From a virus (Duplodnaviria > Heunggongvirae > Uroviricota > Caudoviricetes), in the IMG/VR virus record IMGVR_UViG_2671180577_000008: a stretch of DNA of 4,556 bases. The stretch is one strand, 5' to 3'. The position numbers were made by a program, and so were the translations under genes. Below, piece by piece: positions 409-4,556 of this stretch. Under the pieces are notes generated by a model. The model was not told the origin of the DNA. It saw only the letters and a list, made by a program, of their open reading frames with translations, and did not search any database. The stretch's first letter is position 1. Each line of letters begins with the position of its first letter.

Positions 409-609
409 GAAAATAAAGGGATAACGATGATAGTTTGAGAAAAACAGAAATAACACTTTTGTGGCAAAGCATGGTGCCGGGTGCCTCCCGGTGAATTCAG
501 TATCAGCACCTGAATCCGCGATTACCCCATATTCCTTCTTGCTGATTGCCCCACCGCACAGGGGGATTCACCATGCAGAAGTGTTTTTAATAAACAGCAA
601 ACAAAAAAA

Positions 610-777
610 TCAAGCATTATGCAGGCTGTTTCTTTTTATCACCGGCCACAGCAATACCACAATGCCGCAGACCAGCACCCCATCCGCCAGCACCGACATG
701 ATTCTGCTGGTGAAATCCACCATCACCACCAGAAACAGCAGGAGTGCAGCCACAGTCAGGCGCAGTTTTACCGTCAC
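610..777 (-). CDS. Small hydrophobic protein (55 aa, two predicted transmembrane helices), translationally coupled to the upstream TerB-like gene; function unknown
   Basis: Not in the supplied ORF track as such. Minus-strand GTG at 777-775 overlaps the TerB-like stop (GTGA) with GGAG 8 nt upstream; stop TGA at 612-610. Translation: MTVKLRLTVAALLLFLVVMVDFTSRIMSVLADGVLVCGIVVLLWPVIKRNSLHNA. Alternative internal ATG at 723 (37 aa) has no usable SD. Start assignment is uncertain. Confidence 0.4.
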   Translation of the reverse strand: MTVKLRLTVAALLLFLVVMVDFTSRIMSVLADGVLVCGIVVLLWPVIKRNSLHNA

Positions 778-1206
778 AGGTAATTCTCCAGACGAAGACC
801 CAGAACACCGGCAATCTCTTCCAGCACCTTGCGCTCTTCCGGCTCAATTTCGCCGTCTGCCTCCGCAATGGCCACCGCCACATCCAGCACATCTTCCGCT
901 TCACGCGTATCGTGTTTCACATCCTCGATCTCACGTAACGCCGCACGACGACCAGTTTTAAAGTTCGTATCCAGCTGACCGATAATGGTTGCGCTAATCG
1001 CATTAATTTCTGACGTAAACGCGTACAGCGCAGGCTGATTACGCAGTACCTGTTCGATCTTCGCTTTCTAGGAAGCCTCACATTCACCATCTGCATAGGC
1101 CACCAGGTAGGCGGCGTTAATCACCACCTGTGCCAGATCGCGTTTTTCAAACTTTTTAATTTCCGTTGCCGCTCTGCGGGCTTTTTTTACCAAAAATACC
1201 AAACAT
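774..1206 (-). pseudogene. TerB-family (tellurite-resistance TerB-like) gene disrupted by a +1 frameshift in an A7 homopolymer (1182-1188) and an in-frame amber codon (TAG at 1070-1068); intact length would be ~143 aa
   Basis: ATG at 1206-1204 with AAGGAA SD 7 nt upstream. Frame A gives MFGIFGKKSPQSGNGN then stop (1158-1156). The +1 frame continues protein-like: ARRAATEIKKFEKRDLAQVVINAAYLVAYADGECEAS-TAG-KAKIEQVLRNQPALYAFTSEINAISATIIGQLDTNFKTGRRAALREIEDVKHDTREAEDVLDVAVAIAEADGEIEPEERKVLEEIAGVLGLRLENYL-stop(776-774). The repeated xADGExxxxE blocks and the C-terminal VAIAEADGEIEPEERKVLEEIAGVLGL are as recalled for the TerB fold. The other two frames are closed around both lesions. Confidence 0.6.
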
Positions 1207-1341: not shown

Positions 1342-1365
1342 AAAAAAGGCCCGCAAAAGCGAGCC
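1342..1365 (-). terminator. Rho-independent terminator immediately downstream of the tRNA cluster (minus strand)
   Basis: Minus-strand RNA GGCUCGC-UUUU-GCGGGCC (7-bp stem with one G-U pair, 4-nt loop) followed by U6 (plus-strand A6 at 1342-1347), 17 nt after the argO-like 3' end. Confidence 0.55.
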
Positions 1366-1381
1366 GGGAAAATAAGTGTAG

Positions 1382-1455
1382 CGCGTTGTACTGGAGTCGA
1401 ACCAGTGACCGATTGCTTAGAAGGCAATTGCTCTGTCCTGCTGAGCTAACAACGC
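1382..1455 (-). tRNA. argO: tRNA-Arg, anticodon UCU (reads AGA); prophage argO-type; CCA not encoded
   Basis: Minus-strand sequence GCGTTGT-TA-GCTC-AGCAGGACA-GAGC-A-ATTGC-CTTCTAA-GCAAT-CGGTC-ACTGG-TTCGACT-CCAGT-ACAACGC-G folds as a canonical 74-nt cloverleaf: 7-bp acceptor, 4-bp D stem, 5-bp anticodon stem, loop CU-UCU-AA, T-loop TTCGACT, discriminator G. Confidence 0.85.
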
Positions 1456-1468
1456 AGAATACCGATAA

Positions 1469-1544
1469 TGGACCACCACCGGGGACTCGAACCTCGCACA
1501 CTCAACTTAAAGGGTTGACGCTCTTTCCTGATGGCTAGTGGCGG
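1469..1544 (-). tRNA. argN: tRNA-like gene, argN-type by position and backbone but degenerate: anticodon loop CC-UUU-AA (UUU with C33), weakened D stem; possibly a pseudo-tRNA
   Basis: Minus-strand sequence CCGCCAC-TA-GCCA-TCAGGAAA-GAGC-G-TCAAC-CCTTTAA-GTTGA-GTGTG-CGAGG-TTCGAGT-CCCCG-GTGGTGG-T-CCA. Acceptor pairs 7/7 (one G-U), encoded CCA, T-loop TTCGAGT. Only 2 of 4 D-stem pairs form, one A-C mismatch in the T stem, C instead of the near-universal U33. Backbone aligns block-by-block with E. coli tRNA-Arg(UCU) as recalled (TAGC, AGAGC, CTTCTAA versus CCTTTAA, GGTTCGAAT versus GGTTCGAGT). Confidence 0.5.
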
Positions 1545-1545
1545 T

Positions 1546-1621
1546 TGGTGGCCCTTGCTGGATTTGAACCAGCGACCTGGCGATTATGAGTCGCTCGCTC
1601 TCACCACTGAGCTAAAGGGCC
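1546..1621 (-). tRNA. ileZ: tRNA-Ile2 (anticodon CAU, lysidine-type, reads AUA); prophage ileZ-type (tools often label it tRNA-Met); CCA encoded
   Basis: Minus-strand sequence GGCCCTT-TA-GCTC-AGTGGTGA-GAGC-G-AGCGA-CTCATAA-TCGCC-AGGTC-GCTGG-TTCAAAT-CCAGC-AAGGGCC-A-CCA, a 76-nt cloverleaf, near-identical in layout to E. coli ileX as recalled. Confidence 0.85.
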
Positions 1622-4405: not shown

Positions 4406-4556
4406 TGAACCGCCCCGGGAATCCTGGAGACTAAACTTCCTGAGAAAGAGGTAAACAGGATGACTAAAAATACTCGTTTTTCCCCTGAAGTCCGTCAACG
4501 GGCAGTCCGTATGGTTCTGGAAAGTCAGGGCGAATATGACTCACAATGGGCGACAA
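4406..4556 (+). mobile_element. IS629-like (IS3 family; IS629/IS1203) insertion sequence, left end only; element continues beyond the window
   Basis: Terminal TGAACCGCCCCGGGAATCCTGGAGACTAAACTTCC... begins at 4406 (IS3-family TG terminus) and is followed by the orfA start; matches the IS629 left end as recalled. Confidence 0.75.
4460..4556 (+). CDS. IS3-family transposase OrfA (IS629 orfA), N-terminal 32 codons; 3' partial
   Basis: ATG at 4460 with AGAGG/CAGGA SD upstream. Translation [32 protein letters not shown], the helix-turn-helix N-terminus recalled for IS629/IS1203 OrfA. Open to the window end. Confidence 0.8.

What the first reader, a model, noticed from the sequence alone, without database searches (positions are those of the whole stretch)
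1066..1072. Amber codon in the TerB-like gene lies in CTAGG, consistent with 5mC deamination at a Dcm site (TGG to TAG)
The in-frame TAG (minus 1070-1068) sits in plus-strand CTAGG (1068-1072). An ancestral CCAGG would be a Dcm site whose methylated inner C deaminates to T, a known hotspot normally corrected by very-short-patch repair. That change would turn a Trp codon (TGG) into amber. Protein-like sequence continues in the same frame on both sides, so this is a point nonsense mutation rather than a true gene end. Together with the frameshift it points to a decaying gene.
Basis: inference. Interest (0 to 1): 0.4.

Follow-up and report, generated by a model that had tools for sequence, protein, structure and literature searches.

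The report
Glu-to-amber nonsense mutation in prophage TerB pseudogene
The in-frame TAG is a real, widespread nonsense mutation in a prophage TerB-family gene, but it arose from a conserved glutamate codon (GAG) and not from tryptophan at a Dcm methylation site, so this is an ordinary, already-annotated pseudogene.

Summary
Minus-strand TAG (1070-1068) lies in plus-strand CTAGG (1068-1072) and interrupts a TerB-family (PF05099) gene whose reading frame continues on both sides. RefSeq annotates the same allele as a pseudogene with an 'internal stop'.

The interpretation does not hold. Of 116 homologues with a residue at this position, 112 have Glu. These come from E. coli, Klebsiella, Salmonella, Serratia, Pantoea and Erwinia phages. 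The Glu also aligns with a Glu in the solved TerB structure 2JXU.

In DNA the intact allele reads TCC-GAG, which is plus-strand CTCGG and not a Dcm site. On identical 49-nt flanks, GAG occurs in 151 complete E. coli genome records, TAG in 577 and TGG in none. The lesion is therefore GAG to TAG, a G:C to T:A transversion that 5mC deamination cannot produce. The CTAGG context comes from the conserved preceding Ser codon TCC.

Two rare Trp (TGG, CCAGG) alleles exist in draft assemblies. Each is identical to a different amber haplotype (1 difference in 1072 nt; 2 in 1743 nt). They most likely derive from amber, the reverse of the proposed direction. CTAGG to CCAGG is the change that Vsr/VSP repair is reported to promote.

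No suppressor tRNA is in the window. Interest is low.

The parts
774..1206 (-). TerB-family (PF05099) gene, here a pseudogene. The ancestral ATG is at 1206-1204, the PGAP-style TTG start at 1202-1200, and the TGA stop at 776-774.
   Evidence: Translation. Pfam TerB 41.9 bits. PGAP 'internal stop' pseudogene in identical copies. Match to the TerB structure 2JXU, E=5.7e-7.
1068..1070 (-). In-frame amber codon TAG at codon 46 (ATG numbering). It replaces the conserved Glu codon GAG; the mutated base is 1070 (coding G to T, plus C to A).
   Evidence: Allele counts.
1068..1072 (+). CTAGG pentamer created by the mutation. Intact alleles read CTCGG, which is not a Dcm site; the two rare Trp alleles read CCAGG.
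1071..1076 (-). Ala44-Ser45 codons GCT-TCC. The TCC codon supplies the 'GG' of plus-strand CTAGG. The synonymous GCT (base 1074) was linked to every amber and Trp allele examined and is also found on some Glu alleles.
   Evidence: TAG always with this background, 67/67; GAG on it 11/53.
1182..1188 (-). A7 homopolymer (T7 on plus) at codons 7-9. It is +1 relative to A6 alleles that start at the ATG (MFGIFGKKARR...). With A7 the ATG frame ends after 16 codons, and the body is in frame only with the TTG at 1202.
610..777 (-). Intact DUF3927 gene (55 aa). Its GTG start overlaps the TerB TGA stop (GTGA), so it is probably translationally coupled (inference).
   Evidence: (PF13064, E=3.3e-17).
1381..1621 (-). 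Prophage tRNA cluster upstream of the gene: Ile2-type (CAU) at 1546-1621, a degenerate argN-like tRNA at 1469-1544, and Arg (UCU) at 1381-1455. None has a CUA (amber-suppressor) anticodon.

Best explanation
The window is the late-region 'moron' slot of a lambdoid prophage of EHEC/EPEC-type E. coli. On the minus strand the order is DUF968, RusA, Q antiterminator, tRNAs, TerB-family gene, DUF3927, STnc100 sRNA, then the start of the DUF1737/SASA esterase. The TerB-family gene carries a single-base nonsense mutation at codon 46, Glu GAG to amber TAG (coding-strand G to T at window 1070). This cuts the protein after 45 residues, before most of the TerB domain. The mutated Glu is the conserved acidic residue that follows the first 'ADG' motif of the domain. 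The mutation most likely arose once, on a GCT-TCC-GAG background. It was then spread across many prophages and serotypes by prophage recombination, and it persists because these genomes usually carry several paralogous copies, including intact ones. It is not a Dcm/5mC deamination event: the ancestral plus-strand pentamer was CTCGG, and the change is a transversion. The CTAGG context is a by-product of the conserved Ser TCC codon. Shown here: the sequence, the ancestral state, the allele frequencies and the haplotype relations. Inferred: single origin, relaxed selection through redundancy, loss of function, and possible polarity on DUF3927.
For: Glu is found at this column in 112 of 116 homologues across genera. 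The exceptions are 2 Trp and 2 misaligned or frameshifted sequences. Glu46 aligns with a Glu of Klebsiella TerB 2JXU. Intact alleles read GCA/GCT-TCC-GAG. For the exact 49-mer in 5,426 complete E. coli genomes, TAG occurs in 577 records, GAG on identical flanks in 151, and TGG in 0. In an IMG/VR sample capped at 120 matches, TAG occurs 67 times, GAG 53 and TGG 0. TGG-specific scans of IMG/VR and JGI metagenomes found 0, and a GGG-specific scan found 0. An intact O157 allele (WP_001303509.1) differs from a reconstructed basal amber haplotype (a composite of sampled amber haplotypes) by only the GAG/TAG base and one synonymous base over 487 nt. Amber is always linked to the same local background, 67 of 67, and sits on 10 gene haplotypes. 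One genome (O145 RM9872) holds both an amber and an intact Glu copy, and gene-carrying genomes have a median of 4 copies. PGAP calls the allele a pseudogene with an internal stop.
Against: No formal recombination-aware ancestral reconstruction was done. The IMG/VR census was capped at 120 loci. An exact full-length Glu twin of an amber haplotype was not found; the closest is 1 extra synonymous difference. Loss of function is inferred, because no expression or phenotype data exist for this gene. The A7/TTG-start question leaves open whether even the Glu alleles on this background are efficiently translated.
Confidence: 0.9

Rival explanations
1. An ancestral Trp codon TGG (plus CCAGG, a Dcm site) lost its inner 5-methylcytosine by deamination, escaped VSP repair, and became TAG.
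For: The product sequence CTAGG is what such an event would leave. Trp/CCAGG alleles do exist in two draft assemblies, and each differs from an amber allele only at this base, or at this base plus one other.
Against: Glu, not Trp, is the family-wide residue, and GAG on identical flanks is common (151 records). TGG is absent from 5,426 complete genomes, IMG/VR and JGI metagenomes. TGG is two steps from GAG, and the GGG intermediate was not found. The Trp allele L004 carries markers private to a derived amber sub-lineage: 1110C occurs in 0 of 55 Glu alleles and 1024A in 1 of 55. The two Trp alleles sit on two different amber haplotypes, so this model would need Trp to have been ancestral on both and then nearly extinct.
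Confidence: 0.04
2. The amber is not inactivating. It would be read through, either by a suppressor tRNA (host or prophage encoded) or by context-dependent readthrough, which would explain why the allele is so common.
For: The allele is very widespread (577 records). It sits directly downstream of a prophage tRNA cluster. The reading frame downstream is otherwise open.
Against: None of the three tRNA-like genes in the window has a CUA anticodon; they are CAU, UCU and a degenerate UUU-like copy below the Rfam threshold. Near-amber-private nonsynonymous changes (S61Y at 1024, 22 of 33 amber against 1 of 55 Glu alleles; K to R at 1156, absent from all 55 Glu alleles) are compatible with relaxed constraint. 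High frequency is explained by hitch-hiking on a successful, recombining prophage module with redundant paralogues.
Confidence: 0.04
3. The stop is a natural gene boundary or an artefact, meaning either two separate conserved ORFs or a sequencing error.
For: None beyond the presence of a stop codon.
Against: Homologues are single ORFs of about 141-148 aa spanning the site. There is no start codon or ribosome-binding context after the stop; the next in-frame start is a GTG 50 codons downstream. Identical sequence occurs in hundreds of independent complete genomes.
Confidence: 0.01

Closest known systems
TerB family (Pfam PF05099; solved example Klebsiella pneumoniae TerB, PDB 2JXU); annotated in lambdoid phages/prophages as 'TciA/TerB-like protein'
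   Same: The Pfam match is above the gathering score. It aligns with 2JXU over residues 15-137, including the Glu at the mutated position. It has the same gene neighbourhood (Q, tRNAs, TerB, DUF3927, SASA esterase, holin) as hundreds of E. coli prophages. The RusA/TerB neighbourhood is also described for Pas sRNA loci (bioRxiv 10.64898/2026.05.13.724894).
   Different: This copy is interrupted by an amber codon at Glu46 and has the A7 N-terminal variant. The function of the prophage TerB-like proteins is not established. It is only distantly related to ter-operon TerB (E=5.7e-7).
Dcm-site 5-methylcytosine deamination hotspots (CCWGG to CTWGG; classic lacI and lambda cI amber hotspots), normally countered by Vsr very-short-patch repair
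   Same: The mutant sequence CTAGG is the pentamer such events leave, and the mutation is an amber codon.
   Different: The ancestral pentamer was CTCGG, not CCAGG, and the base change is C to A on that strand, not C to T. This is a look-alike and not a member.
Vsr-promoted CTAGG to CCAGG mutation (Doiron et al. 1996, as cited in PMC2715241; proposed cause of CTAG depletion in E. coli, the latter from my own knowledge of Bhagwat & McClelland 1992 and Merkl et al. 1992)
   Same: The two rare Trp alleles differ from their amber twins by exactly CTAGG to CCAGG. [quoted passage not shown] CTAGG and CTAG are scarce in the window.
   Different: There are only two events. A transition bias alone could give the same outcome.

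Membership tests
Dcm/5mC deamination hotspot mutation | The mutant site reads CTWGG | tested here: met
   Plus 1068-1072 = CTAGG
Dcm/5mC deamination hotspot mutation | The ancestral site reads CCWGG (a Dcm recognition site) | tested here: not met
   Intact alleles read CTCGG (codon GAG) on identical flanks in 151 complete-genome records. CCAGG occurs in 0.
Dcm/5mC deamination hotspot mutation | The change is a C-to-T (G-to-A) transition at the inner C | tested here: not met
   The change is G to T on the coding strand and C to A on plus, at 1070. The inner-C position 1069 is T in both the Glu and amber alleles.
Dcm/5mC deamination hotspot mutation | The ancestral amino acid is Trp (for TGG to TAG) | tested here: not met
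   Glu in 112 of 116 homologues and Trp in 2
Dcm/5mC deamination hotspot mutation | The host expresses Dcm methylase | not testable with these tools
   The host genome is not given and the window holds no dcm gene.
TerB family (PF05099) | Profile match above the curated threshold across the domain | tested here: met
2JXU E=5.7e-7.
TerB family (PF05099) | Uninterrupted ORF encoding the whole domain | tested here: not met
   TAG at codon 46. PGAP annotates it as a pseudogene with an 'internal stop'.
Nonsense-mutation pseudogene | In-frame stop at a position where homologues have a sense codon, with homology continuing downstream | tested here: met
Suppressor-decoded or programmed-readthrough amber | A cognate CUA-anticodon tRNA is available | tested here: not met
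   The window tRNAs have anticodons CAU, UCU and a degenerate UUU-like one. Host chromosomal suppressors are not testable.
Vsr/VSP-promoted CTAGG to CCAGG conversion (for the rare Trp alleles) | The derived allele is CCAGG on an otherwise identical CTAGG haplotype | tested here: met
   L005 against L137 shows 1 difference in 1072 nt, and L004 against L136 shows 2 in 1743 nt, one of them this base.
Vsr/VSP-promoted CTAGG to CCAGG conversion (for the rare Trp alleles) | Dependence on Vsr endonuclease | not testable with these tools
   This needs a genetic reversion assay in vsr+ and vsr- hosts.

The most novel reading that the evidence does not exclude
The Glu-to-amber mutation accidentally created a CTAGG pentamer, which mimics a deaminated Dcm site. 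In natural E. coli populations this amber has changed to Trp (CTAGG to CCAGG) at least twice, on two different haplotypes. This may be driven by Vsr very-short-patch repair 'correcting' T:G replication errors toward C. If so, it would be a natural-population example of VSP repair acting as a directional mutator that erases CTAG and re-opens a pseudogene.
Probability: 0.25. Interest if true: 0.35.

Novelty: already known. Interest (0 to 1): 0.12.

Why it matters
It matters little on its own. The gene is one decayed copy of a multi-copy prophage accessory gene of unknown function, and RefSeq already flags it as a pseudogene. The useful result is a correction: a CTAGG-embedded amber is not evidence of Dcm-site deamination unless the ancestral codon is checked. 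Here the ancestor was Glu/GAG and the context was inherited from the neighbouring Ser codon. A minor curiosity is that the only sense variants found at the amber (two Trp alleles) are the change expected from Vsr-biased repair. That could be tested cheaply with a reversion assay.

Tried and rejected
1. I looked for TGG/CCAGG alleles as possible ancestors. There were none in complete E. coli genomes, IMG/VR or JGI metagenomes, only two singleton proteins from draft assemblies. They were rejected as ancestors because each has an amber twin and one carries amber-private markers.
2. I looked for a GGG (Gly) intermediate that would allow GAG to GGG to TGG to TAG. None was found in IMG/VR or among the proteins.
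3. I searched for an exact full-length Glu twin of a basal amber haplotype. The best is 99.8%, differing at the site itself after substitution plus synonymous 1074. The exact parent haplotype was therefore not recovered, only an exact 49-nt match.
4. I searched the deposited phage genomes for the amber allele. There were only 4 distant hits (TciA/TerB-like, 93-94% identity) and no amber allele. The allele was seen only in prophage or UViG sequence.
5. I looked for a suppressor tRNA in the window and found none.
6. A literature search for this TerB/DUF3927 prophage gene found no functional study. The only mention is as a neighbour of Pas sRNA loci.
7. I considered assembly collapse as the source of the Trp calls. 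This was rejected because mixing GAG and TAG copies cannot produce a G at codon position 2.

Full report
OBSERVATION. The plus strand at 1068-1072 is CTAGG, and the minus strand reads TAG at 1070-1068. Translating the minus strand from 1235 to 774 in one frame gives LAHPPKGTSRCLVFLVKKARRAATEIKKFEKRDLAQVVINAAYLVAYADGECEAS*KAKIEQVLRNQ...GLRLENYL*. Replacing the stop with a sense residue gives a protein that matches Pfam TerB (PF05099, 41.9 bits, cutoff 24.4) across residues 34-138, which spans the stop.

The same allele is annotated by PGAP as 'tellurite resistance TerB family protein, pseudogene, internal stop' in several complete E. coli genomes. The exact 49-mer around the stop occurs in 577 complete-genome records, so it is not a sequencing error.

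CONTEXT. All genes lie on the minus strand.
- A 92-aa ORF at 4204-3926.
- DUF968 at 3924-2869.
- RusA at 2868-2503.
- Antiterminator Q at 2512-1817.
- A tRNA cluster at 1621-1381.
- The TerB-family gene at 1206-774.
- DUF3927 at 777-610.
- An STnc100-family sRNA at 605-433.
- The start of a DUF1737/SASA esterase at 295-1.

This is the late-operon accessory slot of lambdoid prophages of EHEC/EPEC-type E. coli. The best whole-window matches are O55:H7 DEC5E (99.6%, full length) and many O111:H8 strains.

WHAT THE ANCESTRAL CODON WAS. A homologue search returned 171 proteins, of which 120 were listed. I aligned the 120.
- 112 of the 116 with a residue at this column have Glu (...GECEAS-E-KAKIEQ...). 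These include sequences from Klebsiella, Salmonella, Serratia, Pantoea, Enterobacter and Erwinia/Salmonella jumbo phages.
- Two have Trp (P0001, P0007). Both are singleton clusters from draft assemblies.
- The remaining two are misaligned or frameshifted.
- The Glu also aligns with a Glu in the solved Klebsiella TerB structure 2JXU.

In DNA, intact alleles read GCA/GCT-TCC-GAG-AAA, which is plus-strand CTCGG and not a Dcm site.

Allele-specific 49-mers, identical except at the codon, were searched against 5,426 complete E. coli genomes.
- TAG had exact matches in 577 records.
- GAG had exact matches in 151 records.
- TGG had exact matches in 0 records.

A degenerate-pattern scan of IMG/VR, capped at 120 loci, gave TAG 67, GAG 53 and TGG 0. 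TGG-specific scans of IMG/VR and of the JGI metagenome collection found nothing. A GGG-specific scan, testing the only route from GAG to TGG that avoids TAG, also found nothing.

An intact O157 allele (WP_001303509.1 in FDAARGOS_293) differs from a reconstructed basal amber haplotype (a composite of sampled amber haplotypes) over 487 nt only at the GAG/TAG base and one synonymous base, 1074.

The mutation is therefore GAG to TAG. On the coding strand this is G to T at window 1070, and on plus it is C to A. That is a transversion, which cytosine or 5-methylcytosine deamination cannot produce. The 'GG' of CTAGG comes from the preceding Ser codon TCC. That codon is TCC in every Glu, amber and Trp allele I compared directly; the collection scans fixed it in the search pattern. 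The Dcm-like context is thus an automatic by-product of any TAG at this codon.

DIRECTION OF THE TRP ALLELES. The Trp allele in L004 (GCA_023642445.1) is identical to the window's gene except TGG for TAG. It carries 1110C, which is absent from all 55 sampled Glu alleles, and 1024A, which is present in 1 of 55. Both are markers of a derived amber sub-lineage.

Over 1,743 nt, L004 differs from the amber copy in complete genome 2013C-3342 at only two bases, one of them this site. The second Trp allele, L005 (GCA_016184505.2), lies on a different haplotype about 16 differences away. It is identical over 1,072 nt to the amber copy of complete genome 2013C-4830 except at this base.

Three facts point the same way. 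Glu is ancestral. TAG is one step from GAG and TGG is two. Each Trp allele is a singleton beside an amber twin found in complete genomes.

On the plus strand that change is CTAGG to CCAGG. [quoted passage not shown] 1996). With only two events and a general transition bias, this remains a lead and not a demonstration.

POPULATION PICTURE. Amber was completely linked to one local background (67 of 67), which suggests a single origin. It now sits on 10 gene haplotypes, including ones with a different N-terminal segment. It is found in O157:H7, O55:H7, O26, O103, O111, O121 and O145 strains. This pattern is consistent with the mosaic recombination typical of lambdoid prophages.

Gene-carrying genomes hold a median of 4 copies. 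O145 RM9872 has both an amber copy and an intact Glu copy. Redundancy plausibly relaxes selection on any one copy (inference). Near-amber-private nonsynonymous changes (S61Y at 1024, which the window carries and which occurs in 1 of 55 Glu alleles; K to R at 1156 in other amber copies, absent from Glu alleles) fit relaxed constraint, but they are too few to test. The amber allele was not found in any deposited phage genome.

THE 'FRAMESHIFT'. The window has A7 (minus strand; plus T7 at 1182-1188). Homologues in other genera and some E. coli alleles start MFG.F.KK.RR from the ATG with A6. With A7 the ATG frame stops after 16 codons, and the gene body is in frame only with a TTG at 1202-1200. 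PGAP uses that start (MVFLVKKARR...). A7 is the majority state of this N-terminal type in E. coli and is also present in alleles annotated as intact. It is a real +1 change relative to the conserved N-terminus. It is not specific to this copy, and its effect on expression is unknown.

SUPPRESSION. ARAGORN finds three tRNA-like genes with anticodons CAU, UUU and UCU. Rfam confirms only the outer two. The middle one is a diverged copy of the tRNA-Arg (argN-type) seen intact in other prophages. None has a CUA anticodon. The host chromosome cannot be checked.

MECHANISM. The shown result is truncation of a TerB-family protein at residue 45 of about 143 by a Glu46 amber mutation. The rest is inferred: loss of function, possibly reduced translation of the overlapping (GTGA) DUF3927 gene, a G:C to T:A transversion origin (for example oxidative damage to guanine, but unspecified), and persistence by hitch-hiking and redundancy.

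VERDICT. The pseudogene reading is supported. The feature is an ordinary, already-annotated pseudogene, and interest is low. The only mildly novel angle is the apparent recurrent amber-to-Trp (CTAGG to CCAGG) change, which is compatible with Vsr-biased repair.

Noticed in passing
window 433-605 (-), with a terminator-like hairpin at 408-390 (-): There is a strong match to the Rfam sRNA family STnc100 (RF02076, 100.8 bits against a gathering score of 47) just downstream of DUF3927 on the same strand. A 2026 preprint (10.64898/2026.05.13.724894) links STnc100 and PasD sRNAs to this prophage neighbourhood (RusA/TerB/esterase).
   Followed up: partly
window 1469-1544 (-): ARAGORN calls a 'tRNA-Lys(ttt)' between the Ile2-type and Arg(UCU) tRNAs. 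It falls below the Rfam tRNA gathering score, and PGAP does not annotate it in near-identical genomes. Alignment shows it is a diverged copy of the tRNA-Arg (argN-type, UCG anticodon loop) that is intact in other prophages. It has changes in the D-arm and the anticodon stem-loop, and it contains the window's only other CTAG (1535).
   Followed up: partly
window 1182-1206 (-): An A7 run shifts the conserved ATG-initiated N-terminus (MFGIFGKKARR) out of frame. PGAP rescues the ORF with a TTG start 4 nt downstream (MVFLVKKARR). A7 is the commonest state of this N-terminal type in the E. coli alleles sampled, also in copies annotated as intact. Either the TTG start works or most copies are N-terminally damaged.
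   Followed up: partly
window ~4407-4556 (+), ORF start at 4459: The window's right end is the start of an IS3-family transposase orfA ([16 protein letters not shown]...). Only O55:H7 DEC5E matched the window through this junction. O111-type relatives instead continue into a hypothetical gene, hokD and paa. An IS insertion has therefore replaced the upstream prophage segment in this lineage.
   Followed up: partly
L005 2019-2150 and L137 720-851 (DUF3927 homologue of window 777-610): On the second Trp/amber haplotype, the downstream DUF3927 gene is shortened to 43 aa by its own TGG-to-TAG change (CTG-TGG-CCG to CTG-TAG-CCG). Its context, GGCCACAG on the other strand, is not a Dcm site either.
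   Followed up: no
window 1024 and 1110 (-): Two lineage markers characterise the window's amber haplotype. 1024A (Ser61Tyr) occurs in 22 of 33 amber alleles and 1 of 55 Glu alleles. 1110C (synonymous) occurs in 7 of 33 amber alleles and 0 of 55 Glu alleles. They are useful for tracing this pseudogene lineage.
   Followed up: yes
window 1348-1365 (-): A terminator-like hairpin with a T-run lies between tRNA-Arg and the TerB-family gene. Expression of TerB/DUF3927 would presumably need Q-mediated antitermination or a promoter of its own.
   Followed up: no
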